From the IMG/VR virus record IMGVR_UViG_3300045988_119994: DNA of 35,664 nucleotides; one strand, 5' to 3'. The stretch comes from a virus (lineage: Duplodnaviria > Heunggongvirae > Uroviricota > Caudoviricetes). Below the pieces are notes generated by a model. It was not told the origin of the DNA, made no database searches, and was given only the letters and a program-made list of their open reading frames with translations. The translations under genes and the position numbers were made by a program. Shown piece by piece: positions 1-31,648 of this stretch (positions within the stretch are counted from its first letter, which is position 1; each line of letters begins with the position of its first letter).

Positions 1-77
1 ACTTCGAACGTCTGATGGAAGGCGCTAAACTGCTGAAATGTTCAGAGTTTGGTGATGCGATCATCAAGAACATGTAA
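1..77 (+). CDS. icd: isocitrate dehydrogenase, 3' end (partial; 5' part outside window)
   Basis: Frame-3 translation FERLMEGAKLLKCSEFGDAIIKNM* matches the conserved Icd C-terminus as recalled; stop TAA at 75-77; terminator follows. Confidence 0.8.
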   Translation, partial: FERLMEGAKLLKCSEFGDAIIKNM

Positions 78-100
78 TTACTACATGTGTTAAATATTGT

Positions 101-130
101 AACGGGCGTATAACACGCCCGTTGTTTTAT
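101..130 (+). terminator. rho-independent terminator downstream of icd
   Basis: 8-bp stem AACGGGCG / CGCCCGTT (101-108 / 116-123), 7-nt loop, then T-rich GTTTTAT. Confidence 0.6.
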
Positions 131-200
131 GTTAGTACGCTAACGGTTATCAAAATTTTATCAAAATTAGTTATCAAAACCCTTCTGGAAGATTCATGTT

Positions 201-815
201 ATGGACTGCATTTCAAAACAAAAATTCACAATTATTTTAATAGTGGTGTTAATTGCCTTGGGCTGTGCTGCTTATTTTGGAGATGGTGAAGGATATTTTA
301 TAGGTAGCTTTGTGCCTGAATTTACTGGAGTGTGCCTTGAGCTTCTTATTATTTTAAAGGTTTTTGAGGTCTGGCAGCAAAGAGATGAGAAAAGGAAGCT
401 TATTAAGGTTGAAAGACGATTAAGGGAGTTTCTTATTTTCTTTCTGAACCATACGTGCATGGATTTTCCTCCATCCTGCCGTCCAGGGCGTTTTTATGGA
501 ATTGACTATGAGCAAAATCAAAAAGCATTAGAAAAATTAATCAATCATATTGAAGAAAAAGGATTAGCTGAAAATCTTGTTATTCAAGTTCAAATGTATT
601 GTAAGAGTGAATGTCAAATTATAAATAATTTAATCCCAGTTTCTTCTGAGCTTGAAAATGATCACTTTAAATCATGGGTTCGGATTGCCTATTATATGAA
701 TGCCGTTGCTAATGGGCAAGAAAAGGCTAGTGTTGCAATGATTAAAATACTTGAAAATATAAAAAGATTTGATAAGGAATCTCATGATAAAAAACTTTAT
801 GTTGGTGCAAATTAG
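201..815 (+). CDS. hypothetical membrane protein (two N-terminal TM helices plus ~150-aa soluble domain); AT-rich cargo of decayed element
   Basis: 204-aa ORF with ATG at 201; hydrophobic segments at about residues 9-26 and 33-55; visibly AT-rich; no recognisable catalytic motif. Confidence 0.55.
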   Translation: MDCISKQKFTIILIVVLIALGCAAYFGDGEGYFIGSFVPEFTGVCLELLIILKVFEVWQQRDEKRKLIKVERRLREFLIFFLNHTCMDFPPSCRPGRFYGIDYEQNQKALEKLINHIEEKGLAENLVIQVQMYCKSECQIINNLIPVSSELENDHFKSWVRIAYYMNAVANGQEKASVAMIKILENIKRFDKESHDKKLYVGAN

Positions 816-821
816 ATAACA

Positions 822-1083
822 ATAGCTCAGTCTTTCCCTTGGTCATCATAGTGGTGAGCAGTTTGCTACTGGGTCTTATGGCCCAGTAGTTTTCTGGTAT
901 CAACCCCTTGTTCCTTGTAAAGACGCTCAGATAAAGAATTTTGTTCATGAAAAGTTGCTAGAGTTCATGTGCCCTGGTCATTTCCTGCCAAATCCCTCGC
1001 TTTAATGAAATTCACCGTCAACGAATTGGATTTAACCTGTGCACCACGCTCTGTCTGTGAAGTTAAACGGAAAAAATCATGTG
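822..1083 (-). pseudogene. integrase 3' fragment (remnant of an earlier e14-like element)
   Basis: Nucleotide similarity to the 3' ~260 bp of the intact integrase gene (2788-3050) with indels and frame disruptions; no intact ORF; similarity stops near 1083. Confidence 0.7.
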
Positions 1084-1113
1084 TCTAAAACGGATCTATT
1101 TACAGATTGCACT

Positions 1114-1254
1114 AAAGCCGTAGACCTGATTGTTAAAGGTATGGAAGGCGCAATCAACTCCAAGAGCGTAATCTATGACTTCTAACGCTAGATTGAGGTT
1201 ACTAATCTGCTGAAATGTTGAGAGTTTAGTAAATCAATCACAGAAAACATGTAA
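1114..1254 (+). pseudogene. degenerate duplicate of the icd 3' end (icdC-like displaced copy), part of att repeat copy 2
   Basis: Translates as ...[43 protein letters not shown], i.e. Icd C-terminus interrupted by in-frame stops at 1183, 1189 and 1222. Confidence 0.7.
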
Positions 1255-1335
1255 TTCACATTCTGGAATATGTGAGAACGGTAGTCTAGCGGTTCCAGTT
1301 TTTATTATTAGATTTTGAACGGTTATCAAAACAGG
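1114..1335. repeat. att-like direct repeat copy 2 (pseudo-icd 3' end plus AACGGTTATCAAAAC arm at 1318-1332)
   Basis: Same order of elements as copy 1 (icd-like tail, hairpin, GGTTATCAAAA arm), diverged. Confidence 0.55.
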
Positions 1336-1336
1336 T

Positions 1337-1801
1337 TCACTTTGATTCAATTTTGAAACTTTTTTTAACCACTAAAATCATGCAGCTAATCACTTCTGCA
1401 ATGAGGTTAAGAGATAGCACGATAGCAAAAAGTTCTAAAGCAGTAAATAGCTTGCCTTTAGAAGGGATAAATTCGTGCTGAGGATAATTTACTAGTGGTA
1501 TGTCATAATTACGTAAATAGGGAAGGAAGATTGTTACTGCCAGACACATGACCAGTAATTTCAAATCTAATTCTAAACTATCTAAATAGTCCGTAAAGTC
1601 TGTGCTTTTCTCGCCCTTATTAATGACAGCCAAAATTCCGAAGATAACGGAGATACCTGCGGCAATACCTCCAAGTATTGAACCTATTACTCCAGCAGAA
1701 GCCTGCTCAAGTAAGGTATAAATGGTTTTATCAGTCGATGCTAATGCTAAGCACAAAAAGAAGGTAGCTATAGCTTTAATCCAGACAGTTAGATTTTGCA
1801 T
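1337..1801 (-). CDS. small four-TM membrane protein (second gene of cargo operon; candidate effector)
   Basis: 154-aa ORF; four hydrophobic helices (about residues 7-22, 37-60, 81-96, 118-145); start overlaps the upstream gene by 26 nt; AT-rich. Confidence 0.7.
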   Translation of the reverse strand: MQNLTVWIKAIATFFLCLALASTDKTIYTLLEQASAGVIGSILGGIAAGISVIFGILAVINKGEKSTDFTDYLDSLELDLKLLVMCLAVTIFLPYLRNYDIPLVNYPQHEFIPSKGKLFTALELFAIVLSLNLIAEVISCMILVVKKSFKIESK

Positions 1802-2672
1802 TTTTGAACGTATACCTGTTTTGATGTAATGCTATGATCTCTTTAATATCATTTGCTGAGTAGCCATCAAGTTCAATTTCTGATATCTCACCTTCGATCA
1901 GCACGATTTTGGCTGTCTGATTACTGGATACCGTAGTAGATTTTGACTTGAGTGTCTTACGTCCTTTAATCAACCATGACCCGCCACCATCTTTGACCCA
2001 GTCAACAAGAGTCTCAGCCCAATGAGAACCTTTGAGTTTCAAATTGCCATCTTTGTTTTCAAAAATAGTGGTCACAGTATTTGCATTGGTATCTTTTTCA
2101 AGCTTCCGTAAATCATTGGTTAACGCTTGCTTACTGCTTCCGAAGATATTCGGAGTAATCAGCGTAAAGCTGACTTTGTCGATAAATTGAAGCCTATGGT
2201 ATTCTGACCAAAAATCTTCCATTTCAAGACAAGGCTCTATAAATATTCTAAGTCCTAACTGAGCCAAATAGTCGTTATTGGCTAGATCTTCAAACGCTTT
2301 AGCAACTTGTTGCGCATCCTTGAAAACAGCGGTTTTCCTCTCAACCAGTAACACCTGCTCTACTTTGTCCCAAATCCATACGATAGGTGGATAGTTGTCT
2401 ACATCGTACTCTCGAAAGTCTTTATCATGTCCTTTAATCTTTTGCAGCTTTGATATGACTCCAGCCATAACACCATCAGTAGGTTTTATGCTCAATTTCA
2501 GGGTGTAACTAGTTTTCTTATGAACGGAAGGTGTTGATGACGTCATGTGTAAATTTTTTGCAGCGATAACCATAGCATTTTCAAAATGAGAGATATCTTT
2601 CTGAACAGTTCCTTTCGAAAAGAGGTCTGGATCGCGCGGTCTCATTAACACACGTAAGGCATACAACTGCAT
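1776..2672 (-). CDS. hypothetical 298-aa soluble protein (first gene of cargo operon; candidate sensor)
   Basis: ATG at 2672 with AGGAG 7 nt upstream; AT-rich; no HExxH, no GS..DxD nucleotidyltransferase motif and no obvious Walker A; possible D-x8-E-R-K nuclease-like motif is speculative. Confidence 0.7.
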   Translation of the reverse strand: MQLYALRVLMRPRDPDLFSKGTVQKDISHFENAMVIAAKNLHMTSSTPSVHKKTSYTLKLSIKPTDGVMAGVISKLQKIKGHDKDFREYDVDNYPPIVWIWDKVEQVLLVERKTAVFKDAQQVAKAFEDLANNDYLAQLGLRIFIEPCLEMEDFWSEYHRLQFIDKVSFTLITPNIFGSSKQALTNDLRKLEKDTNANTVTTIFENKDGNLKLKGSHWAETLVDWVKDGGGSWLIKGRKTLKSKSTTVSSNQTAKIVLIEGEISEIELDGYSANDIKEIIALHQNRYTFKNAKSNCLD

Positions 2673-2787: not shown

Positions 2788-3915
2788 TCAAACCTTGATT
2801 TTTGCCCATTCCTTACCACGATCATCATGGTATTTAGCTGTCTGGTTAGGCGATTTATGTCCCAGAAGTTTTTGGGTGTCGACGCCCTGAGCTTCGTAAA
2901 GTCGCTCAGATAAAGATCTTTGTTCATGGAATGTGGCGGGCGAACCTTCACCCCAGTCAATGCCTGCTAAATCCCTCGCTTTACTGAAATTCATCGTCAA
3001 TGTATTGGCTTTTACTTGCGCGCCACGTTCAGCCTGTGAAGTAGTACGAAAAAAATGTACAAGGTATGGGCTGACTGCATAGTCACGGCAGCGGGCTACT
3101 ACATCGCGTAAACTCCAGTTAATTGCATTGAGGCGAAGGGAAAGCGGGATGGCGATTTTGCTCCCGGTTTTTTCTTGGATGACGTGAAGATGATCATCCC
3201 AAATATCGCTAAATTTCATACGTGAGATATCACCTAACCGTTGGCCGGTAACCAGTGCTAACAGCATGGCATTCCCCATATAACGATGGCGGGCATCTGC
3301 GATATCAAAGATTTTTTGCCATTCTTCAAGACTTAACCGTTGTCGGGTAATTTTTCTTCTGGGTTGTTTGGTTGCCAGTGCTGGATTATAGCCCGGAGGG
3401 ACTTCCCCATAGTGTTGTGCCTCCTTGAATACATCAATTAGAACGGAGCGGACTACTTGCGCCATCCTCGGTTGCCCGGCAGTGATATACTCGTCAAGTA
3501 ATTGTGCTATATCCCTTACATCAACTGATGAAATTAATTTCATTCCTGCTCGTTCCCTGAGCAAGGATACTGGTTTGGCTTTCTGTTTATAGGTGTTTAG
3601 CTTTATATCGCCACTTTCCAGTCTGTCATCCTGGATTGCTTGATAGCGATCTAACCAGGTTGACGTTGTGATTGCTTTTCCTTTGCTGGTTGCGATCCTG
3701 TCACTGATAGCCAGAATCTGCCGGGTTCTTTGCTCAGCCAGGCGTGAATTTGCCTCAGTGGCAATAGCAATGGCTTCAGCTTCGTTTGTGCCTAAAGAAT
3801 GAAACTTCCCGGTCACTGGATGTTTATATCGCCAATAGACTTTATTTACTTTTCTACTATAAAGCGGATACAAGTTCGGGACTGAAACATTATTTTTACG
3901 TGGTCTGGCTGCCAT
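2788..3915 (-). CDS. intE: tyrosine integrase (lambda-integrase family), e14 IntE-like
   Basis: 375-aa ORF next to the icd-derived att; C-terminal catalytic region with conserved Arg, HxxR (HEQRS) and Tyr (YHDDRG); 5' end overlaps xis by 20 nt; size matches e14 IntE as recalled. Confidence 0.9.
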   Translation of the reverse strand: MAARPRKNNVSVPNLYPLYSRKVNKVYWRYKHPVTGKFHSLGTNEAEAIAIATEANSRLAEQRTRQILAISDRIATSKGKAITTSTWLDRYQAIQDDRLESGDIKLNTYKQKAKPVSLLRERAGMKLISSVDVRDIAQLLDEYITAGQPRMAQVVRSVLIDVFKEAQHYGEVPPGYNPALATKQPRRKITRQRLSLEEWQKIFDIADARHRYMGNAMLLALVTGQRLGDISRMKFSDIWDDHLHVIQEKTGSKIAIPLSLRLNAINWSLRDVVARCRDYAVSPYLVHFFRTTSQAERGAQVKANTLTMNFSKARDLAGIDWGEGSPATFHEQRSLSERLYEAQGVDTQKLLGHKSPNQTAKYHDDRGKEWAKIKV

Positions 3916-4141: not shown

Positions 4142-4184
4142 TTTTGATAACCTCATTTCTTTTGCTACAAAACTATTTCACTAG

Positions 4185-7534: not shown

Positions 7535-8227
7535 TTAATTATGTCTCTTAAGGGTTTGCGACTGACTGATTAAGACCTTTCCAAAGACCATGAATCGGTG
7601 TTCGTTTTCGCTAGTAATTCCCCATTCACGGTAAATCTGGTTATCAGAAATCACCAGCAGTTTGTCAGGAATCATTTGAAGTCTTTTAACGTATATTTTG
7701 TCATCAAAACCAAAGACATATATACCATCACCATCAAACTGATTGATGCTGACATCAACGAAGATGAGATCTCCTGGCTCAATGGTTGGACACATACTGT
7801 CCCCACGAACGTTGATAACTTTGATGTGATTGGCTGGTCGTCCGCCGAACATTGATACAGCATTATCAGTTCTGTATTCGATGGCATGAATCACATCAAT
7901 GACATCACCGCCCTGGATAAGGCCATTTCCCGCACTGGCACTGATATCCAGCATTTCAATACGGAACACATCCTTCACCTGCGCAACATCCTCATTATTA
8001 CTGTTTTTATATACAGTATTACTTTTGTGGGCAGAGGTAAAGAGATCAGCAATATCAACACCTAAGCTCTTGGCAATATTACTCAGTGTTTGTTCGGTAA
8101 ATTGTTTTTGCTTACCCGTTTCTAAGCGCGAGATGTTCGCCGCATCTACTCCTATCGCTTCAGCGAGATCGGCGATTTTCATGTTCTTCGCTTGGCGAAG
8201 TTGTCTGACTCGGTTTCCTATGTTCAT
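7535..8227 (-). CDS. cI: CI-type repressor (N-terminal HTH, C-terminal peptidase S24 / LexA-like autocleavage domain); CohE-like
   Basis: 230-aa ORF; HTH in MKIADLAEAIGVDAANISRLETGK; C-terminal GDSMCPTIEPGDLIFVD and KRL motifs typical of S24; divergent from cro; weak SD. Confidence 0.9.
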   Translation of the reverse strand: MNIGNRVRQLRQAKNMKIADLAEAIGVDAANISRLETGKQKQFTEQTLSNIAKSLGVDIADLFTSAHKSNTVYKNSNNEDVAQVKDVFRIEMLDISASAGNGLIQGGDVIDVIHAIEYRTDNAVSMFGGRPANHIKVINVRGDSMCPTIEPGDLIFVDVSINQFDGDGIYVFGFDDKIYVKRLQMIPDKLLVISDNQIYREWGITSENEHRFMVFGKVLISQSQTLKRHN

Positions 8228-8247
8228 GCGTTTATTACATTTCTTTA

Positions 8248-8310
8248 TTGCGTGATAAGCAAATCAACTTGCGCAAAATAATTGCGTGAAATAACATGCA
8301 TAACGCGCAA
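8248..8310. promoter_or_regulatory. oR-like operator region (strong site TTGCGTGATAAGCAA at 8248-8262; palindrome TTGCGCAA at 8269-8276; weaker site at 8296-8310)
   Basis: Same TTGCG-N5-TGCAA family as oL; lies between divergent cI and cro. Confidence 0.55.
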
Positions 8311-8324
8311 TATTTGGAGGGCGT

Positions 8325-8585
8325 ATGCAATCACCATTACGAAATGTGCGTAAGGCGCATGGTTTCACTTTGCAGCATGTTGCTGCGGGTGTTCAAGTCA
8401 ATCCAGCGACGTTGAGTCGTATTGAGAGGCTGGAGCAGATTCCATCTATCGAGCTTGCAGAACGTTTAGCCAATTTTTTTAAGGGTGAAGTCAGCGAAAT
8501 GCAGATTCTTTATCCGGCACGTTTTCAATCTAGCCAAAACCAGAATGGGTTTAAACCACAGGAACAGGAGGTGAACCGTGGGTAA
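8325..8585 (+). CDS. cro: Cro-like HTH regulator
   Basis: 86-aa ORF divergent from cI; GGAGG SD; HTH in FTLQHVAAGVQVNPATLSRIERLE. Confidence 0.85.
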   Translation: MQSPLRNVRKAHGFTLQHVAAGVQVNPATLSRIERLEQIPSIELAERLANFFKGEVSEMQILYPARFQSSQNQNGFKPQEQEVNRG

Positions 8586-9129
8586 GCATCACTGGAAAGT
8601 AGAAAAACAGCCTGAGTGGTACGTGAAAGCTGTCAGAAAAACTATCGCAGCGTTGCCGGGGGGGTACGCTGAAGCTGCTGACTGGCTGGATGTAACAGAG
8701 AACGCATTATTTAACCGCCTTCGTGCCGATGGCGATCAGATTTTCCCGCTGGGATGGGCAATGGTTTTGCAACGTGCTGGTGGAACTCACTTCATTGCTG
8801 ACGCTGTGGCGCAGTCTGCAAATGGCGTCTTTGTGTCTCTTCCTGATGTCGAGGATGTGGACAACGCCGATATCAACCAACGCCTGCTGGAGGTCATTGA
8901 ACAGATCGGCAGTTATTCAAAACAGATTCGTTCAGCAATTGAAGACGGTGTAGTGGAACCGCATGAGAAGACAGCAATTAACGACGAGCTGTACCTCTCA
9001 ATTTCGAAGCTGCAGGAGCATGCAGCACTGGTCTACAAAATCTTTTGCGTTTCAGAAAGTAGTGACGCCCGCGAGTGTGCAGCTCCGGGCGCCGTGGCGT
9101 GTCGTGACTGTGGAGAAACTAACGCATGA
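8578..9129 (+). CDS. early regulatory protein, YmfL-like
   Basis: 183-aa ORF with GTG start overlapping cro stop, AGGAGG SD; synteny with e14 ymfL as recalled; no motif verified. Confidence 0.6.
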
Positions 9130-13098: not shown

Positions 13099-14094
13099 GT
13101 GACCGTGAGAGCACTACTGACCCCTGAAATAGCCCCGCGTATGGGGATCGTATTGTTCAGACCAGGTTCAGAGCTGATGCCCCTGTTTATGCAGGGGCGT
13201 GTACTGCTGGAGCCTGAGCCGGAACGTTATTCATCTTTCGCCAGTGGTGCCGTTCCCGCGGCATCACAACCGCTGGCGGATGATCCTGCTGTTCGGGCCG
13301 TGTTCCGCAATGAGGCAGTGATCCGTCGTGCTGGTGGCGTAGAATGTCTTGAAAGCTGGTTACTTCGTGAAAAAGGCTGCCAGTGGCCTCATTCCGACTG
13401 GCACAGCGAGAACATGACCACAATGCGACACGCTCCGGGCGCAATCCGTCTGTGCTGGCACTGTGATAACCAGCTGCGCGATCAGTTCACGGAACGGCTG
13501 GAATCAATGGCAACGGATAACTGTGCCCGCTGGGTGTTGTCTGTTGTGCGTCGGGATCTCGGTTTTGATGATAGTCACGTTGTGACAATGCCGGAACTGT
13601 GCTGGTGGCTGATTCGTAATGACCTGGCGGATGCCTTACCGGAAAGTGCAGCCCGTAAGGCACTGAGATTACCAAAGCCTGTTGTGCCGTCTGTCACCCG
13701 GGAAAGTGACCTTGTGCCTTCGGTTCCTGCCACCAGCATCATCCAGGATAAGGCAAAAAAGGTGCTGGCGCTGAAAGTGGATCCGGAGTCGCCGGAGTCT
13801 TTTATGTTACGCCCAAAACGTCGCCGCTGGGTTAATGAAAAGTACACGCGCTGGGTTAAGACACAGCCGTGTGCATGTTGTGGAAAGCCCGCTGATGATC
13901 CCCACCACCTGATAGGCCACGGTCAGGGGGGAATGGGTACAAAAGCGCATGACCTCTTTGTGTTGCCTTTGTGCAGAAAGCATCACGACGAGCTGCATGC
14001 GGATACCGTGGCATTTGAAGAGAAGTATGGCTCCCAGCTGGAGCTGATATTTCGTTTTATCGATCGTGCGCTGGAAATAGGCGTGCTGGCCTGA
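13099..14094 (+). CDS. DUF968 family phage protein (YdfU-like)
   Basis: 331 aa; Cys/His-rich C-terminus (CACCGKP...HHLIGHG...CRKHHDELH); family recalled from prophage Qin; start may be GTG at 13105. Confidence 0.65.
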   Translation: MTVRALLTPEIAPRMGIVLFRPGSELMPLFMQGRVLLEPEPERYSSFASGAVPAASQPLADDPAVRAVFRNEAVIRRAGGVECLESWLLREKGCQWPHSDWHSENMTTMRHAPGAIRLCWHCDNQLRDQFTERLESMATDNCARWVLSVVRRDLGFDDSHVVTMPELCWWLIRNDLADALPESAARKALRLPKPVVPSVTRESDLVPSVPATSIIQDKAKKVLALKVDPESPESFMLRPKRRRWVNEKYTRWVKTQPCACCGKPADDPHHLIGHGQGGMGTKAHDLFVLPLCRKHHDELHADTVAFEEKYGSQLELIFRFIDRALEIGVLA

Positions 14095-14111
14095 TTTTGT
14101 GGAGAAATTTG

Positions 14112-14477
14112 ATGCGTGATATTCAGATCATCCTTGAACGTTGGGGGGCATGGGCAGCTAGTGATAGCTCAGGAGTGGACTATTCGCCTATAGCTGCTGG
14201 GTTTAAGGGACTTCTTCCCTATACCAGTAAGGCACGCCAAGCTTGTTCAGATAATGATGCGCTAATTATTGAAAGTTGCTTGGAGCAACTAAAAAAAAGA
14301 AAACCTTATGAGCATTCTCTACTGGTTGCGCATTATTTGTACGGGTTTTCAAAGCGGAAGATTGCCAAAGTACAAGGAAAGGATGAGAAATTAATCCGTA
14401 TAGAAATATTGTTAGCAGAGGGATTCATTGATGGTTGCCTTTCTACTCTCGATATTCATTTAGATATGGAGTTATAA
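14112..14477 (+). CDS. late-gene antiterminator Q (QuuD-like)
   Basis: MRDIQIILERWGAWAA... N-terminus matches QuuD-type antiterminators as recalled; GGAGA SD. Confidence 0.8.
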   Translation: MRDIQIILERWGAWAASDSSGVDYSPIAAGFKGLLPYTSKARQACSDNDALIIESCLEQLKKRKPYEHSLLVAHYLYGFSKRKIAKVQGKDEKLIRIEILLAEGFIDGCLSTLDIHLDMEL

Positions 14478-14487
14478 TAAAAAATAA

Positions 14488-14512
14488 CCCCGTAAACTTT
14501 ATGTTTACGGGG
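14488..14512. terminator. bidirectional terminator between convergent Q and TIR genes
   Basis: Perfect 10-bp stem CCCCGTAAAC / GTTTACGGGG, 5-nt loop, A-tract upstream and T-tract downstream. Confidence 0.6.
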
Positions 14513-14517
14513 GAAGG

Positions 14518-15333
14518 TTATTTCTTTTTTTTATTACTTTCAGATAATCGTTGGTTTAATGTGTATTTTATTTGGTTCCTAATCATTTTTTCAGGAATGT
14601 CATATTTGTCTAAGAATGATATTATTTCATCCTCGTCAAGCAATCCATTCTTTATAATTTCATCTATCTGTTTTTGTAGATACCAAACATCCTTCTGTTC
14701 TACAGGAGTTAAATTCATATGGCTATTTATGGAGTTGATAGTAGCATCACGTTCAAGAACTCTAATCCTTTGATTTAATGAACGAGTGTTTTGTAATATT
14801 TCAGATAAAAGATCTTGTTCAGTACGTGGTTTTACTTCTTCAGTTGGAGGGTATTGATCTAAAGCTCGTTTAAAATTGTTTTCAAATTGCTCCCAGTATG
14901 TATTAAAAACTTGCTTTAGAATACGGTCATCTAAAGATTTATCGACAAGACAATTGTTTATTGTCCTTACTAATTCCCAAACACTCTCTTTATTTGGCGT
15001 TGTGTGATTGAATTGAGCAAGTGGATCTTTTAAATCTTCTGGTTTTAAGTCAATCAAGAATGTACAAACTTTATTTGTTGAAAGTCCTTTTGCTAGTGCT
15101 CCTGTTTCAAACAAAATCCATGGTTTATTTTTATTTTCTTGTGTCAAACATACAATTCCGACAGATACATCTTTTAATTTATCATTAATTTCAGAGAACC
15201 ATATAGCGCCACGATCAATATCTCTGGTTGAAATCCATGGCTGCGAAGCTTGGATAACACACTTCAGCCAGTCGCTAATAAGTTCTGCAACAGCTTGACT
15301 TCTTTGCCCAGACCAACTTATGAACACTTTCAT
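14518..15333 (-). CDS. TIR-domain protein (N-terminal TIR-like domain plus ~170-aa helical C-terminal domain); AT-rich moron
   Basis: From ATG at 15333 (GGAG SD 6 nt upstream): MKVFISWSGQRS... then PWILFETGA with Trp-x3-Glu; markedly AT-rich; opposite strand to late operon. Confidence 0.8.
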   Translation of the reverse strand: MKVFISWSGQRSQAVAELISDWLKCVIQASQPWISTRDIDRGAIWFSEINDKLKDVSVGIVCLTQENKNKPWILFETGALAKGLSTNKVCTFLIDLKPEDLKDPLAQFNHTTPNKESVWELVRTINNCLVDKSLDDRILKQVFNTYWEQFENNFKRALDQYPPTEEVKPRTEQDLLSEILQNTRSLNQRIRVLERDATINSINSHMNLTPVEQKDVWYLQKQIDEIIKNGLLDEDEIISFLDKYDIPEKMIRNQIKYTLNQRLSESNKKKK

Positions 15334-15457
15334 TATGTACTCCATGTAATCACTCAAAAGGAACTGAAATTTACATTAAAAATTAAATAAAATCACTCAC
15401 GCGGTCCGCAGAAACCATTGTAATCTGTTATGAGTGGTTACTTCGCCACACAACTTA

Positions 15458-15486
15458 AACCCGCCGTCGAGCGGGTTTTGTCGTTT
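15458..15486 (+). terminator. tR'-like terminator in the late promoter region
   Basis: Stem ACCCGC / GCGGGT (15459-15464 / 15471-15476), loop CGTCGA, then TTTGTCGTTTC. Confidence 0.4.
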
Positions 15487-15630
15487 CTGGTCCTAGGGAT
15501 TAATTGCTTCTGCCCTATCCCGCAGTTATCCATTGGCTCGGCTTCTTTTACGTTTCCGCTTCTGATTTGCGGTTCGTGGTACACCCTCAATTTGCACCTC
15601 CTTTATCGGCGAGGTGAGAGATAACTACAA

Positions 15631-27811: not shown

Positions 27812-29636
27812 ATTTGAGCTTAAGGCGTTGATCACCGGTGTCGACAGGCTTTCTCCCGCGCTGTCGAAAATGCAAAAGAAAATCCGGGGATTTAAACGCC
27901 AGGCGGAAGAAGCGTCACAGGGTGGGCTGGCGCTTGGTGGCGGACTGGCAGCGGGGCTGACGCTTTCCCTGAAATCTTATGCCGATCAGGAAAACGCCGC
28001 TACCGGGCTGAAAGTCGCCATGATGGATGCGAACGGCGAGGTTGGAAAGAGCTTTCAGGACATCAATAAACTGGCTATTGGCCTGGGTAACCAGCTACCC
28101 GGTACAACGGCTGATTTCCAGAACATGATGCAGATGCTGGTGCGTCAGGGGATCCCGGCAGAAAACATTCTGGGTGGTGTGGGTAAAGCGACAGCTTATC
28201 TTGCGGTACAACTGAAAAAAACACCGGAAGCGGCTGCCGAGTTTGCCGCAAAGATGCAGGATGCTACCGGAACGGCCTCAGAAGACATGATGGGGCTGTT
28301 CGACACAATTCAGAAGGCGTTTTATCTGGGCGTTGACGACACCAACATGCTGTCATTCTTCACTAAAACCAGCTCTGTTCTGAAGATGGTGAATAAGGAC
28401 GGTCTTCAGGCTGCACAGAGTCTTGCCCCCATCAGTGTCATGATGGATCAGATGGGGATGAACGGGGAGTCGGCAGGTAATGCCCTGCGAAAAGTTATCC
28501 AGTCCGGATTAAGCGTTAAGAAAATCAGGGACGTCAATAAAGTCATGGCCCGCCAGAAACTCGGGGTACAGCTCGATTTTACTGACGGCAAAGGAAGTTT
28601 TGGCGGTCTTGATAACATGTTCAGGCAACTGGCAAAGTTGCGAAAACTGACCGACGTTAAGCGAACAGGCGTACTTAAGGCAATATTTGGTGATGATGCC
28701 GAAACCCTTCAGGTGGTCAATGCGCTGATCGATAAAGGAAAGGATGGCTACGATCAGATCCAGCAGAAGATGAATAAACAGGCCAGCCTGAATAAACGTG
28801 TTCAGGCTCAGCTTGGTACGCTGTCCAACCTGTGGGAGGCAATGACGGGGACCGCAACTAACGGCCTTGCGGCTATTGGCGGCGCATTTTCTGGTGACGC
28901 TAAGAACATCACGCAGTGGCTGGGGGAGTTGGGGGAGAAATTCACGAAGTTTGCGGATGAAAATCCCCGGGTTATTCGCGGCGTCGTCGGGCTTGCTGCC
29001 GGTCTTGCGATTCTGAAACTGGGATTGATGGGCGTGGGCAGTGCCATCAGCATTGTCAGCAGGATCATGTCGATGACGCCGATTGGCATGATTGCGACGG
29101 CGATAGCCCTGGCTGCGGGATTAATTATCACCAACTGGGATGTTGTCGGACCTTATTTCAAGAAGCTCTGGGAAACCATTGGTCCTTATTTTGAGGCTGG
29201 CTGGGAACTCCTTAAGAAAGTTTTTGCCTGGTCGCCGCTGGGGATGGTGATCAATAACTGGGGGCCGGTTGTTAAGTGGTTTCAGGATATGTGGGACAAG
29301 CTGAAGCCAATTATTGAGTGGTTTATCGACAGTTCCGGTGACACGGTCGATGCCATTAACTCTGCGCAGTGGGGCGCGGGTGCTTATGATGCTTATGGGA
29401 CGGGAATACCGCCACGGGGATACACTCCTTATCCGGAGGTGGATCCGGCTCAGGCAAACAACGCCTCCGGTGCCACAGGTCCGAATCCCTTCATGATTAA
29501 TAAAGCTACCGCGCCAAAAGTTGATGGTGAGATCAAGGTATCATTTATAAATATGCCACCAGGTATGCGGGTTACGGAAACACGCTCCAGTGGCATTGAT
29601 ATAAATCACGATGTTGGCTATACCCGATTTTGGTAG
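27804..29636 (+). CDS. tail tape measure protein
   Basis: 610 aa, helical N-terminus, Gly/Ala-rich hydrophobic central segments; position. Confidence 0.9.
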   Translation: MAEFELKALITGVDRLSPALSKMQKKIRGFKRQAEEASQGGLALGGGLAAGLTLSLKSYADQENAATGLKVAMMDANGEVGKSFQDINKLAIGLGNQLPGTTADFQNMMQMLVRQGIPAENILGGVGKATAYLAVQLKKTPEAAAEFAAKMQDATGTASEDMMGLFDTIQKAFYLGVDDTNMLSFFTKTSSVLKMVNKDGLQAAQSLAPISVMMDQMGMNGESAGNALRKVIQSGLSVKKIRDVNKVMARQKLGVQLDFTDGKGSFGGLDNMFRQLAKLRKLTDVKRTGVLKAIFGDDAETLQVVNALIDKGKDGYDQIQQKMNKQASLNKRVQAQLGTLSNLWEAMTGTATNGLAAIGGAFSGDAKNITQWLGELGEKFTKFADENPRVIRGVVGLAAGLAILKLGLMGVGSAISIVSRIMSMTPIGMIATAIALAAGLIITNWDVVGPYFKKLWETIGPYFEAGWELLKKVFAWSPLGMVINNWGPVVKWFQDMWDKLKPIIEWFIDSSGDTVDAINSAQWGAGAYDAYGTGIPPRGYTPYPEVDPAQANNASGATGPNPFMINKATAPKVDGEIKVSFINMPPGMRVTETRSSGIDINHDVGYTRFW

Positions 29637-29664
29637 CCAGGATTCCCCTCACAGGTATTGCTGG

Positions 29665-29692
29665 TTGTAAGTCATAAATAGAGTGATAGAAT
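29665..29692 (+). promoter_or_regulatory. candidate sigma70 promoter of the tail-module moron (TTGTAA-N16-TAGAAT)
   Basis: -35 at 29665-29670, -10 at 29687-29692, 36 bp upstream of the moron ATG. Confidence 0.4.
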
Positions 29693-29727
29693 TAATGCAC
29701 ATTTAGAAAAATGTTAATAGGCGAAAA

Positions 29728-30258
29728 ATGAAAGGCTATATCACAGCAAGTGTAATTCTTGGAGTGGCGGCTATTTTTTCATCTCTCATAATCTCTGGCA
29801 ACATCTCCTTTAAAGATGAACATATTATTCAGTTATCTGGAGGAGCCATAAAACTTGGTGATGTTTATAAAGAAAATAAATTGATAAGTGCAAAGATTAT
29901 TTTTCCAGATAATCAGGGTGAACAGATTCTTGTTGTCGACGGCAATCCTGAAAACTTTAAGGAGGATTTTCAGGAGAAATTAAATAAAGTAATAAAAACT
30001 TTAAATGCGTCAAAGAAAAAAGATGAAGAGAAAGTTAGCCTGGATAATTTAAGTGTTATTGAAGAGTCTAAACTAGAGCTCGTTTCTGCGGTGCGTTACT
30101 CTGCTCAGTATGTTCCTATGTTTACTCTGACGCTGGACAAAAAAGAAATTACCATGCCTAAAAATACGGTAATATTTCCATTTGCCAGCGATGAAACAGC
30201 TAAGTATTTAAATGAACAACAGCAAAAGTATAAAGATTCGTTGTTTCTGACTCGCTAA
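29728..30258 (+). CDS. hypothetical membrane-anchored protein (AT-rich moron inside tail module)
   Basis: 176 aa; single N-terminal hydrophobic helix; AT-rich; own promoter and terminator. Confidence 0.6.
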   Translation: MKGYITASVILGVAAIFSSLIISGNISFKDEHIIQLSGGAIKLGDVYKENKLISAKIIFPDNQGEQILVVDGNPENFKEDFQEKLNKVIKTLNASKKKDEEKVSLDNLSVIEESKLELVSAVRYSAQYVPMFTLTLDKKEITMPKNTVIFPFASDETAKYLNEQQQKYKDSLFLTR

Positions 30259-30276
30259 TTAATAAAATTCATTACA

Positions 30277-30305
30277 AGGCCACCTTCTAATAGGTGGCTT
30301 TTTAA
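30277..30305 (+). terminator. rho-independent terminator after the moron
   Basis: Stem GCCACC / GGTGGC (30279-30284 / 30293-30298), loop TTCTAATA, then TTTTTAATTTT. Confidence 0.6.
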
Positions 30306-30319
30306 TTTTCGGAGTATAT

Positions 30320-31648
30320 ATGACGTGGAAAGACAGACTTCAGGACGCGTCATTTCGCGGTGTGCCGTTTAAGGTTGAAGAAGAAAGTGCGGGAACCGGT
30401 CGTCGTGTGGAAACACATGAATACCCGAACCGCGACAAGCCCTATACCGAAGACCTGGGGAAAATCACTTTCCGCCCGTCCATCACGGCTTATGTGGTGG
30501 GAGATGACTGCTTTGACCAGCGCGATCGCCTGATTGACGCGCTGAATAAACCCGGTCCCGGCACGCTTGTCCATCCGACTTACGGTGAGCTGAAAGTCTG
30601 TGTTGACGGAGAGGTTCGGGTCAGCACATCGAAGAGTGAAGGGCGTATTGTCCGCTTTGACCTGAAGTTTGTCGAAGCGGGAGAACTCTCTTACCCCACA
30701 TCAGGTGCGGCGACGGCGCAGACGCTGATGTCATCCTGTTCTGCACTGGATGACTGCATCAGTGACAGCTTCAGCGGTTTCAGTATTGATGGCGTGGCGG
30801 ATTTTGTGCAGAACGACGTTATCGGTAATGCCAGCACAATGCTGGGGTATGTTTCTGATGCGATGAAAGTGGTGGATTCTGCCGTATCGGATGCCGCCAG
30901 GCTGTTGCAGGGGGATATCTCGGTACTTCTGCCGCCGCCATCGTCAGGCAAAAATTTTGTTGAGCAGGTGCAGAAAATGTGGCGTACCGGGAAGCACCTT
31001 TATGGTAACGCCAGCGACCTGGTCACCATGATCAAAACGCTTTCTGGTGTCAGCCTCGGCAGCGATCTGCAACCGCGCGGCGTCTGGAAAACGGACAGTA
31101 AAACCACCGCCACGGCGACGCAGCAGCGTAACGTGGTTGCCAGCACCCTTCGTACGACCGCAATCAGCGAAGCGGCGTATGCCGTCACCCGATTGCCTGC
31201 GCCAACAACTTCCGCGGTGATGCAGAATGCTGCAGTGGGGCAGTCAACAACACCCGCGCAGAGCACCGGCTGGCCTTCCGTCACGCATCCGGCACTGAAC
31301 AATGCACCGGCGGTGAAAAACACGGTTGACCTGCCAACGTGGGAGGAACTGACCGACATTCGCGACACACTGAATACGGCAATTGATAAGGAGTTGTCCC
31401 GTACAACCAGTGATGCGCTATTTCTGGCGCTGCGCCGGGTGAAAGCAGATCTGAATGCGGATATCAACACGCGCCTTGAACAGTCTGCACGGATCATTCA
31501 GCGCACGCCGGATGAGGTTTTACCCGCGCTGGTGCTGGCGGCGACCTGGTTTGATAACGCGGCGCGTGACGCGGACATTATCCGGCGTAATGCCATTAAA
31601 CATCCCGGCTTTGTGCCGGTGATCCCTCTGAAGGTGCCAGTGCAATGA
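30320..31648 (+). CDS. DNA circularisation protein (Mu gpN-like)
   Basis: 442 aa; MTWKDRLQDASFRGVPFKVEE... N-terminus typical of Mu N family as recalled. Confidence 0.8.
   Translation: MTWKDRLQDASFRGVPFKVEEESAGTGRRVETHEYPNRDKPYTEDLGKITFRPSITAYVVGDDCFDQRDRLIDALNKPGPGTLVHPTYGELKVCVDGEVRVSTSKSEGRIVRFDLKFVEAGELSYPTSGAATAQTLMSSCSALDDCISDSFSGFSIDGVADFVQNDVIGNASTMLGYVSDAMKVVDSAVSDAARLLQGDISVLLPPPSSGKNFVEQVQKMWRTGKHLYGNASDLVTMIKTLSGVSLGSDLQPRGVWKTDSKTTATATQQRNVVASTLRTTAISEAAYAVTRLPAPTTSAVMQNAAVGQSTTPAQSTGWPSVTHPALNNAPAVKNTVDLPTWEELTDIRDTLNTAIDKELSRTTSDALFLALRRVKADLNADINTRLEQSARIIQRTPDEVLPALVLAATWFDNAARDADIIRRNAIKHPGFVPVIPLKVPVQ

What the first reader, a model, noticed from the sequence alone, without database searches (positions are those of the whole stretch)
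201..815. AT-rich 204-aa membrane protein surviving as the only intact gene of the decayed element
Seen: ORF with two N-terminal hydrophobic helices followed by a ~150-aa soluble domain, strongly AT-rich, located in the att-proximal cargo position where exclusion and abortive-infection genes are typically carried. Retention of this gene while the rest of the element decayed suggests selection for its function. No catalytic motif recognised.
Basis: inference. Interest (0 to 1): 0.5.

Follow-up and report, generated by a model that had tools for sequence, protein, structure and literature searches.

The report
Orphan prophage membrane gene kept by selection
A small, AT-rich membrane protein gene left behind next to icd when the rest of its prophage eroded is a genuine, selectively maintained member of a rare, uncharacterised family that travels as prophage cargo and integron cassettes and is most likely an anti-phage (exclusion/abortive-infection) factor, though no function has been tested.

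Summary
Window 201-815 (+) encodes a 204-aa protein (WP_000340437.1, "hypothetical") with two N-terminal TM helices and a 147-aa all-helical cytoplasmic domain. It is 33 % GC in a 51 % GC window. It lies between the icd tail/attL and a 94-codon integrase stub that abuts a displaced second icd tail and a second e14-like prophage.

It is not a fragment. The family has about 100 clusters at 50 % identity among 1.84 billion proteins, nearly all 190-235 aa. No Pfam, PADLOC, PHROGs, NCBIfam or PDB match was found, and only generic helix-bundle folds.

The same gene sits between icd and an intact integrase in Citrobacter and Proteus prophages. In V. cholerae it is a single-gene attC-flanked cassette of the superintegron. 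Elsewhere it neighbours AIPR, TIR-like, retron-like and PDC-M45 genes.

Two E. coli alleles differ by about 20 % in the integrase stub and intergenic DNA. The gene itself shows dS 0.21 but dN 0.014 (omega 0.07), so it was retained by selection.

In a marine subclade an 80-aa partner precedes the gene. Elsewhere that same partner precedes a defence-type dGTPase.

Best reading: a stand-alone membrane-acting phage-defence or exclusion effector. This is inferred, not shown. It is a new, uncharacterised family of a known kind.

The parts
1..77 (+). 3' end of icd. This functional tail was supplied by the integrated element and contains the attL core region.
   Evidence: RefSeq annotation of the identical region. 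It is duplicated at 1178-1256 with 75 % identity.
99..125 (+). icd intrinsic terminator hairpin carried by the element
   Evidence: Terminator scan. The hairpin is conserved with compensatory changes in E. coli SC487, Citrobacter, Serratia and Proteus.
147..179 (+). Three direct TTATCAAAA repeats (starting at 147, 158 and 171). They are candidate Int arm-type sites, arranged like the lambda P' arm of attL.
   Evidence: Motif positions. Conserved in SC487, Citrobacter and Proteus despite about 20 % divergence around them, and absent in Serratia, which has no integrase. The function is inferred by analogy with lambda P'1-P'3.
201..815 (+). The 204-aa cargo gene. It has TM1 (about 9-27), a short acidic periplasmic loop, and TM2 (about 35-57) with a conserved P39-E40-x2-G43-x3-E47 face. 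TM2 continues as a basic juxtamembrane helix (invariant ERRLRE, 71-76). A cytoplasmic four-helix bundle follows, carrying the invariant N153-x-HFK-x-W-x-R161, D191, S194 and Y200-V-G202.
   Evidence: Purifying selection is shown.
818..1099 (-). Integrase pseudogene stub: the C-terminal roughly 94 codons (residues 281-373 of about 375) with 4 in-frame stops
   Evidence: tblastn with three intact integrases, translation and the RefSeq pseudogene annotation.
1107..1256 (+). Displaced, degenerate second copy of the icd 3' end. It marks the right boundary of the decayed element and the left boundary of the next prophage.
   Evidence: blastn gives 79-82 % identity to functional icd tails. The reading frame ends early.

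Best explanation
The gene is the surviving cargo ('moron') of a lambdoid, icd-integrating prophage of the e14 integrase type. The rest of that prophage was deleted, leaving about 1.1 kb: P' arm, cargo gene and integrase stub.

Its product is a stand-alone inner-membrane protein with N-in/C-in topology. TM1 is a poorly conserved anchor. TM2 carries a family-wide conserved face with two acidic residues (P-E-x2-G-x3-E). It runs on as one long helix into a highly conserved basic juxtamembrane segment and a cytoplasmic four-helix bundle.

The most likely function is protection of the lysogen, or of an integron host, against other phages by acting at the membrane. One version is that the cytoplasmic bundle holds the TM2 hairpins in an inactive state until an infection cue lets them oligomerise into an acid-lined cation or proton leak (abortive infection, RexB/PycTM-like logic). 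The other is constitutive interference with phage genome entry or early steps (superinfection exclusion).

Shown: the anatomy, the topology arguments, the mobility, the solitary genetic architecture, the purifying selection and the defence-rich neighbourhoods. Inferred: the anti-phage role, the oligomeric pore and the trigger.
For: Mobile and accessory:
- 33 of 5,426 complete E. coli genomes carry it.
- 10 of about 185,600 species-representative genomes carry it.
- The identical protein occurs in Salmonella.
- GC is 27-35 % in every host, whatever the host GC.

Prophage cargo: the arrangement icd | gene | intact Arm-type int | xis | lambdoid genes is seen in Citrobacter and Proteus.

Integron cassette: the gene is bracketed by VCR/attC repeats in the V. 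cholerae chromosome-2 array and lies downstream of IntI in the V. diabolicus group. 16 of 88 unknown N16961 cassettes tested were antiphage (bioRxiv 10.1101/2024.07.02.601686).

Defence neighbours:
- lit occupies the same slot of K-12 e14.
- PDC-M45 lies next door in SC487.
- An RT + AAA_15 pair lies next door in Proteus.
- AIPR, SNase and NADAR genes lie in the Pseudoalteromonas island.
- A TIR-effector-like gene lies immediately downstream in Oceanisphaera.
- AbiH and putAbiC cassettes occur in the same arrays.

Interchangeable-effector signal: an 80-aa partner is conserved upstream in a marine subclade. The same partner precedes a PADLOC defence dGTPase (E 3.7e-71) in S. pealeana.

No conserved neighbour otherwise, so the gene is self-sufficient.

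Selection: omega is 0.19 or less between genera. It is 0.07 between the two E. coli alleles, while the flanking stub evolved neutrally.

Structure and topology:
- The AlphaFold2 model has pLDDT 89.6.
- The conserved residues P39, E40, G43, E47, I51 and V54 fall on one face of TM2, and PE..G...E persists at 17-20 % identity.
- A KR-rich segment follows TM2.
- Two family members add one more TM segment plus an OmpA-like periplasmic domain, which places the conserved domain in the cytoplasm.
Against: - There is no experimental or transcript evidence.
- No sigma-70-like promoter was found between the icd terminator and the start codon.
- No homology to any known defence, Abi, Sie or holin family was found in Pfam, PADLOC 2023, PHROGs or NCBIfam. 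Fold searches returned only generic bundles.
- The gene is absent from 50,697 deposited phage genomes.
- About a third of the contexts examined (Marinobacterium, Marinomonas, Colwellia, Desulfoluna, an uncultured 2.5-Mb contig) show no recognisable defence or mobile-element genes.
- The cytoplasmic domain is very conserved across genera. That fits a conserved host target or an enzymatic or ligand-binding role at least as well as it fits a phage sensor.
- The base rate for an unknown integron cassette being antiphage is only about 10-18 %.
Confidence: 0.45

Rival explanations
1. It is a lysogenic-conversion or host-physiology membrane protein unrelated to phages. Examples would be an ion- or envelope-homeostasis factor, or a regulator that anchors or sequesters a conserved cytoplasmic host partner. 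It would be carried by mobile elements because it benefits the host in certain, mainly aquatic, niches.
For: - The cytoplasmic domain is strongly conserved: 29 invariant positions across genera, with omega 0.19 or less. This suggests a conserved host-side partner or ligand rather than a fast-evolving phage target.
- Several family members sit among housekeeping or transport genes with no visible defence genes.
- Most integron cassettes tested were not antiphage (72 of 88).
- Two relatives are fused to OmpA-like envelope domains.
Against: - The distribution is extremely sparse and patchy: 10 of about 185,600 species.
- The gene repeatedly sits in the defence-rich attL-int slot and next to AIPR, TIR-like, RT and PDC-M45 genes.
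- Its small partner is shared with a defence dGTPase.
Confidence: 0.25
2. It is a selfish toxin-like or addiction module. The membrane protein would be intrinsically toxic and stabilise the cassette array or prophage remnant. It would be kept in check by the 80-aa partner where that is present, or by silencing or an unrecognised antisense RNA where it is solitary.
For: - The gene lies among CcdAB and ParE/Phd cassettes in Vibrio arrays.
- It is a small two-gene module in one subclade.
- It persisted in E. coli after its element decayed.
- At 33 % GC it would be a typical target of H-NS silencing. This point is established knowledge applied as inference; it was not tested here.
Against: - Most copies (E. 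coli, Salmonella, Citrobacter, Proteus, Serratia, V. cholerae) have no partner gene.
- A solitary protein toxin of 204 aa with an elaborate conserved cytoplasmic domain is atypical for type I toxins.
- The partner also occurs alone, or with a dGTPase, which does not fit a dedicated antitoxin.
Confidence: 0.12
3. It is an inert passenger. The ORF would be intact in E. coli only because the truncation is recent, and it would be silent and functionless there.
For: 32 of the 33 E. coli copies differ by 0-1 nucleotides, and no promoter consensus was found.
Against: The SC487 allele shows about 0.2 substitutions per site of neutral divergence in the stub, in the intergenic DNA and at synonymous sites, yet dN is 0.014 and the frame is intact. 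Both integrase stubs carry independent stop codons. Family-wide omega is well below 1.
Confidence: 0.08

Closest known systems
Lit (cell-death peptidase) and other cargo in the attL-int slot of E. coli prophage e14
   Same: It occupies the same genomic slot, between the icd-embedded attL and an e14-type Arm-domain integrase and excisionase. It is also a stand-alone accessory gene carried by a (cryptic) prophage.
   Different: There is no sequence or fold relationship. Lit is a soluble zinc metalloprotease that cleaves EF-Tu (established knowledge), whereas this protein is a 2-TM all-helical protein with no protease motif. It is also unrelated to YmfE from the same slot.
Membrane-acting abortive-infection / exclusion effectors (lambda RexB; Pycsar PycTM and CBASS 2TM effectors; SieB-type proteins)
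   Same: Small inner-membrane proteins encoded by prophages or defence islands. A TM hairpin is joined to a cytoplasmic regulatory domain. The proposed action is loss of membrane integrity or potential. Like such effectors, this gene alternates with an enzymatic effector (a dGTPase) behind a shared small partner.
   Different: No HMM match to any of these families was found in Pfam or PADLOC. There is no cyclase, RexA-like or other signalling partner in the enterobacterial and V. cholerae copies. The cytoplasmic domain is a helix bundle with no recognisable nucleotide-binding fold.
Antiphage cassettes of sedentary chromosomal integrons (e.g. 'Brigantia', a TM-only protein from V. cholerae N16961; Darracq et al., bioRxiv 10.1101/2024.07.02.601686)
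   Same: It is a single-gene, attC-flanked cassette of unknown function in a Vibrio superintegron that encodes a membrane protein with no known domain.
   Different: Identity with any of the 16 validated cassettes could not be tested, because no sequences are given in the held text or supplement. The V. cholerae strains that carry this cassette are not N16961.
Pfam DUF4760 (label given to relatives by UniRef/NCBI)
   Same: Source databases name the Enterobacterales, Citrobacter and V. crassostreae members 'DUF4760 domain-containing protein'.
   Different: None of the 88 family members scanned matches PF15956. P0002, the Citrobacter protein that carries the label, gave no hit even at E <= 10. 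DUF4760 itself has no known function.

Membership tests
Pfam DUF4760 (PF15956) | Significant match to the Pfam HMM (gathering threshold) | tested here: not met
   hmmscan of the window protein, of P0002 itself, and of 38 close plus 50 distant members gave no DUF4760 hit. The E-value limit was 10 for the close set and 1 for the distant set.
Known anti-phage defence protein families (PADLOC-DB 2.0.0) | HMM match to a defence-system component | tested here: not met
   0 families at E <= 1. Newer DefenseFinder and PADLOC models were not available.
Known phage superinfection-exclusion, Abi and holin families represented in Pfam or PHROGs | HMM match to the family model | tested here: not met
   Pfam gave only sub-threshold chance hits. 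PHROGs gave one hit at E 0.098 over 16 residues. BFVD Foldseek gave no match at E <= 0.001.
Prophage cargo ('moron') of an icd-integrating e14-type lambdoid phage | Located inside the element, between the attL arm and the integrase gene, in intact prophages | tested here: met
   Citrobacter L014 and Proteus L012/L013 show icd | gene | 374-375-aa Arm-DNA-bind + Phage_integrase | Exc | lambdoid genes. The window is collinear with L014.
Prophage cargo ('moron') of an icd-integrating e14-type lambdoid phage | Own promoter and terminator; expressed from the prophage state | tested here: inconclusive
   The gene is flanked by the icd terminator (99-125) and a terminator-like hairpin (865-890), but no sigma-70 consensus promoter was found upstream. 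No transcript data are available.
Integron gene cassette | Single ORF bounded by attC recombination sites within an array next to an IntI integrase | tested here: met
   For homologues, not for the window copy. In V. cholerae L002 VCR repeats lie at 7814-7969 and 8631-8786 around the gene at 8001-8618, within 21 or more cassettes. In L008 the array lies downstream of a 320-aa integrase.
Membrane pore / depolarising Abi effector (functional class) | Inner-membrane localisation with TM hairpin | tested here: met
   Prediction only. Two hydrophobic 19-23-residue helices. Positive-inside distribution. OmpA-fusion relatives.
Membrane pore / depolarising Abi effector (functional class) | Oligomerises and collapses membrane potential on phage infection; confers population-level protection | not testable with these tools
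   Needs phage challenge, DiBAC/DiSC3 depolarisation assays and cross-linking or native mass spectrometry.

The most novel reading that the evidence does not exclude
The family is the membrane effector of a previously undescribed, minimal anti-phage system. A 2-TM protein with an acidic TM2 face (P-E-x2-G-x3-E) would form a gated cation or proton leak. It would work alone in enterobacterial prophages and V. cholerae cassettes. In marine bacteria it would be wired to an 80-aa beta-sheet partner that can alternatively be wired to a defence dGTPase. That would make a new small sensor or adaptor with interchangeable effectors.
Probability: 0.3. Interest if true: 0.65.

Novelty: new member of a known kind. 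Interest (0 to 1): 0.45.

Why it matters
If the inference holds, this adds a compact (about 0.6 kb) single-gene membrane defence family that is absent from the defence catalogues searched here.

It also shows that the attL-int slot of icd-integrating prophages is a cargo hotspot linked to the integron cassette pool: the same gene moves between Vibrio superintegrons and enterobacterial prophages.

The comparison of the gene with its own decaying integrase stub is a clean natural experiment. It shows domestication of a single prophage gene by purifying selection.

The 80-aa partner shared with a defence dGTPase is a testable lead to a new modular system.

If the function turns out not to involve phages, the family is still a strongly constrained, horizontally mobile membrane protein of unknown role, present on at least 1000 E. 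coli and Salmonella contigs.

Tried and rejected
- HMM scans of the protein and of 88 family members against Pfam, PADLOC, PHROGs and NCBIfam gave nothing above noise.
- The 'DUF4760' label in UniRef and NCBI names could not be reproduced, and the literature on DUF4760 is empty.
- A profile search of PDB sequences gave nothing.
- tblastn against 50,697 phage genomes gave no hit. Plasmids gave only a mis-binned E. coli chromosome piece and one 33 %-identical Vibrio megaplasmid gene.
- Candidate catalytic motifs were considered by eye and rejected. The H155-x-K157 stretch lacks the Asp of a PLD HKD motif. There is no R-x4-6-H (HEPN) motif in the right order, and no second His/Asp set for an HD domain. 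This rests on inspection of the alignment.
- The protein is unrelated to YmfE (same slot in e14) and to the 154-aa membrane ORF of the neighbouring element.
- The 80-aa partner gave a confident beta-meander model but uninformative fold matches.
- Literature searches by accession or locus tag found no paper.
- The integron-defence preprint could not be linked to this family by sequence.
- One look-up (P0062) found no contig.

Full report
**1. What is in the sequence**

The window opens with the last 77 nt of icd (…FGDAIIKNM*). Identical DNA in E. coli strain E4 is annotated in this order: icd, a hypothetical protein (WP_000340437.1), a partial integrase pseudogene, two hypothetical proteins, intE and xisE.

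The flagged ORF (201-815, +, ATG, 204 aa) exists exactly as described. Kyte-Doolittle windows give two hydrophobic segments, about 9-27 and 35-57. An AlphaFold2 model built on a 38-sequence alignment is confident (mean pLDDT 89.6, pTM 0.76) and all-helical:
- H6-26 is TM1.
- H32-85 is one continuous helix, consisting of TM2 plus a basic juxtamembrane extension.
- H100-120, H124-143, H153-170 and H176-196 form a bundle.

The gene is 33.0 % GC (GC3 25 %) in a 50.6 % GC window.

**2. Anatomy of the decayed element**

- The icd tail (1-79) is duplicated at 1178-1256 with 75 % identity. The whole second tail (1107-1256) is 79-82 % identical to functional icd tails of E. coli, Citrobacter and Serratia, and its frame is broken.
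- Between the gene and this displaced tail lies an integrase stub on the minus strand (818-1099). It corresponds to residues 281-373 of intact 374-375-aa e14-type integrases and contains four in-frame stops.
- Window 1-1077 is collinear at 75.5 % identity with a Citrobacter locus in which the same gene is followed by an intact Arm-DNA-binding integrase and an excisionase.
- Between the icd terminator hairpin (99-125) and the start codon lie three direct TTATCAAAA repeats (147, 158, 171). They are conserved in SC487, Citrobacter and Proteus although the surrounding DNA is about 20 % diverged, and they are missing in Serratia, where no integrase remains. By analogy with the three tandem P' arm-type sites of lambda attL (established knowledge), they are probably Int arm sites. 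That would place the cargo gene inside the element, between the P' arm and int.

The 'decayed element' is therefore about 1.1 kb: icd tail/attL, P' arm, cargo gene and int stub. It ends at the icd tail displaced from the next, largely intact e14-like/lambdoid prophage (cargo 1337-2672, intE 2788-3915, xisE).

**3. It is a full-length member of a rare family**

The word-indexed search found 74 proteins of 200-213 aa at 42-99 % identity. They come from Citrobacter, Serratia, Proteus, Vibrio, Photobacterium, Pseudoalteromonas, Teredinibacter, Marinobacterium and Thiomicrorhabdus.

An exhaustive profile search of 1.84 billion representatives found only 101 clusters at E <= 1e-3, nearly all 190-235 aa. 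Only 10 of about 185,600 species-representative genomes encode a relative, plus one IMG/VR contig.

In E. coli the gene occurs in 33 of 5,426 complete genomes. The identical protein is nevertheless recorded on at least 1000 contigs, including Salmonella enterica.

No Pfam, PADLOC, PHROGs or NCBIfam model matches. The 'DUF4760' name that UniRef and NCBI attach to some relatives is not reproduced for any of the 88 members scanned.

Conserved positions:
- In TM2: P39, E40, G43 and E47.
- W58 and E71-R-R-L-R-E76.
- F98/G100, N106 and C134.
- N153-x-H-F-K-x-W-x-R161.
- D191, S194 and Y200-V-G202.

The conserved TM2 residues (P39, E40, G43, E47, I51, V54) fall on one helical face, while TM1 is poorly conserved. 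PE..G...E, H155, W159 and F190 persist even at 17-20 % identity.

**4. Topology**

Three observations all point to N-in/C-in, with the conserved domain in the cytoplasm:
- Charge distribution: a basic N-tail, an acidic loop (GDGEG) and 8 K/R in the 34 residues after TM2.
- Two long relatives add one further TM segment.
- Those two relatives also carry a weak OmpA-like, peptidoglycan-binding domain of a type that is normally periplasmic.

This is prediction, not measurement.

**5. Genomic contexts**

(a) Intact prophages. Proteus terrae and Citrobacter sp. show icd (or an icd' fragment) | gene | int | xis | SSB, repressor, RusA and so on. One Proteus locus has an RT + AAA_15 pair immediately upstream, at the junction of tandem prophages.

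(b) Serratia marcescens. The gene is directly downstream of icd in an island without an integrase.

(c) Integron cassettes.
- In V. cholerae chromosome 2 the gene is bracketed by VCR repeats (817-bp cassette) within an array of 21 or more cassettes. The array includes ParE/Phd, CcdAB and acetyltransferases, and in a sister strain AbiH.
- In the V. diabolicus group the gene lies in the array downstream of an IntI-type integrase. A putAbiC cassette is nearby.

(d) Pseudoalteromonas arctica. The island carries resolvases, NADAR, PRTase-CE, SNase and AIPR.

(e) Oceanisphaera. The next gene matches a PADLOC TIR effector (E 1.5e-11).

(f) Marinobacterium, Teredinibacter, Marinomonas, Colwellia, Desulfoluna and an uncultured 2.5-Mb contig. 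No recognisable defence genes and no conserved neighbour.

The same attL-int slot in K-12 e14 holds ymfD, ymfE and lit, the cell-death peptidase. In E. coli SC487 the slot of the adjacent e14-like element holds PADLOC candidate system PDC-M45.

The gene is absent from 50,697 deposited phage genomes.

**6. A partner in one subclade**

In the V. diabolicus group, Shewanella glacialipiscicola, Aeromonas popoffii and the IMG/VR contig, an approximately 80-aa ORF lies 12-20 nt upstream. It is 55-76 % identical between genera, and a remnant survives in Pseudoalteromonas.

That family has 41 clusters and folds as a five-stranded beta-meander (pLDDT 92). It has no informative structural neighbour.

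It is not tied to the membrane protein. In Shewanella pealeana it precedes, by 58 nt, a 439-aa protein that matches the PADLOC defence dGTPase model (E 3.7e-71). In Pseudomonas viridiflava it stands alone in a prophage early region.

A small conserved protein paired alternatively with a 2-TM protein or with a nucleotide-depleting enzyme resembles the interchangeable-effector logic of defence systems. This is an inference. The enterobacterial and V. cholerae copies have no such partner.

**7. Selection**

Between genera, synonymous sites are saturated (dS above 1.6 or undefined) while dN is 0.09-0.42, so omega is 0.19 or less wherever it can be computed. Gene GC stays at 27-35 % in hosts whose loci are 34-54 % GC.

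Thirty-two E. coli copies differ by 0-1 nt and so carry no information. Strain SC487 carries a 95.3 %-identical allele in the same arrangement, with a shorter integrase stub and a different downstream e14-like element.

Segment-wise divergence between the two alleles:

| Segment | Divergence |
|---|---|
| icd tail | 2.6 % |
| intergenic | 20.3 % |
| gene | 4.7 % |
| integrase stub | 20.7 % |

Within the gene, 23 of the 29 differences are at third codon positions. dN is 0.014 and dS is 0.208, giving omega 0.07. The two stubs have different end points and no shared stop codons.

The gene's synonymous divergence equals the divergence of the adjacent dead DNA, while its protein has been held almost constant. 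One caveat applies: part of the divergence may have accrued while each allele was still in a live prophage.

**8. Mechanism (committed, with confidence 0.45)**

I read this as a stand-alone inner-membrane anti-phage factor. The constrained acidic face of TM2 would mediate oligomerisation into an ion-conducting or membrane-perturbing assembly. The cytoplasmic bundle, including the ERRLRE juxtamembrane helix, would gate it. In some lineages an accessory small protein would modulate it.

The result could be abortive infection (depolarisation after a trigger) or constitutive exclusion at genome entry. These data cannot separate the two. The anatomy, mobility and selection are shown. The antiviral role and the pore are inferred.

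Rivals are:
- a non-phage host-physiology membrane protein (0.25);
- a toxin-like or addiction gene (0.12);
- an inert passenger (0.08), which the dN/dS contrast disfavours.

**9. Comparison with known systems and novelty**

Functionally the closest known systems are prophage or defence-island membrane effectors (RexB, PycTM/CBASS 2TM, SieB-type) and the cargo of the e14 attL-int slot (Lit). By sequence and fold it belongs to none of them: the membership tests were not met.

It is best described as a new, uncharacterised family of a known kind, namely mobile-element-borne, membrane-anchored candidate defence cargo.

Interest is moderate. Nothing here is mechanistically surprising yet. Still, the family is clean, compact, experimentally tractable and absent from the defence libraries searched here. 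It links enterobacterial prophage cargo to the Vibrio integron cassette pool, and the small partner shared with a dGTPase is a concrete lead.

Noticed in passing
window 147-179 (+); also 1323-1331 (+) and 4142-4150 (-): Three tandem TTATCAAAA repeats lie between the icd terminator and the cargo gene. They are conserved in E. coli SC487, Citrobacter and Proteus but absent in Serratia. Single copies occur at the left arm and near xisE of the neighbouring prophage. They are probably Int arm-type (lambda P'-like) binding sites of e14-type integrases.
   Followed up: partly
L008 7747-7989; L016 1185-1439; L017 5740-5979; L025 7740-7979; L031 5001-5243; L032 5001-5216: An approximately 80-aa five-stranded beta-meander protein family (41 clusters) with the invariant motif E-x-RKG-x-DT and SM-x-I-x-PP. 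It lies directly upstream of the membrane gene in a marine subclade. In Shewanella pealeana it lies upstream of a defence-type dGTPase (PADLOC E 3.7e-71). In a Pseudomonas viridiflava prophage it stands alone. It may be a shared sensor, adaptor or regulator of interchangeable effectors.
   Followed up: partly
window 1337-1801 (-) and 1776-2672 (-): Two overlapping ORFs, a 154-aa multi-TM protein and a 298-aa protein, fill the attL-int cargo slot of the second (e14-like) prophage. Neither has a hit in Pfam, PADLOC, PHROGs or NCBIfam, and the 154-aa ORF is unrelated to the 204-aa family. This is another unknown candidate cargo pair in a defence-prone slot.
   Followed up: partly
L029 9931-11614 (E. 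coli SC487, NZ_LR778149.1): A three-gene cargo (dual-OB, DUF488, DUF4326) sits in the attL-int slot of an e14-like element that also carries pinE and mcrA. The first two proteins match PADLOC candidate system PDC-M45A and PDC-M45C (E 1.7e-53 and 8.3e-68).
   Followed up: partly
L012 3661-7143 (Proteus terrae): A reverse transcriptase (RVT_1) plus AAA_15/AAA_21 ATPase pair lies at the junction of two tandem icd-integrated prophages. It sits just upstream of an icd' fragment and the family gene, and looks like a retron- or DRT-like defence module.
   Followed up: no
L020 6756-7907 (Oceanisphaera submarina): The gene immediately downstream of the family member matches a PADLOC TIR effector model (E 1.5e-11).
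   Followed up: no
P0078 (419 aa) and P0081 (496 aa), metagenomic relatives: In these proteins the family domain is followed by extra TM segment(s) and a weak OmpA-like C-terminal domain (E 1e-4 to 3e-3, below the Pfam cut-off). This suggests that some relatives are tethered to peptidoglycan.
   Followed up: partly
window about 14000-15500 and 29500-30500: Two further AT-rich dips (31-41 % GC) occur inside the otherwise 52-60 % GC prophage, for example around ORF 14518-15357 (-) and ORF 29728-30258 (+). They are possibly additional moron-type cargo.
   Followed up: no
cluster of the window protein: The exact 204-aa sequence is recorded on at least 1000 contigs, including Salmonella enterica. 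Many Salmonella entries are 'partial' at contig ends. This implies recent exchange of this icd-adjacent remnant between E. coli and Salmonella.
   Followed up: no
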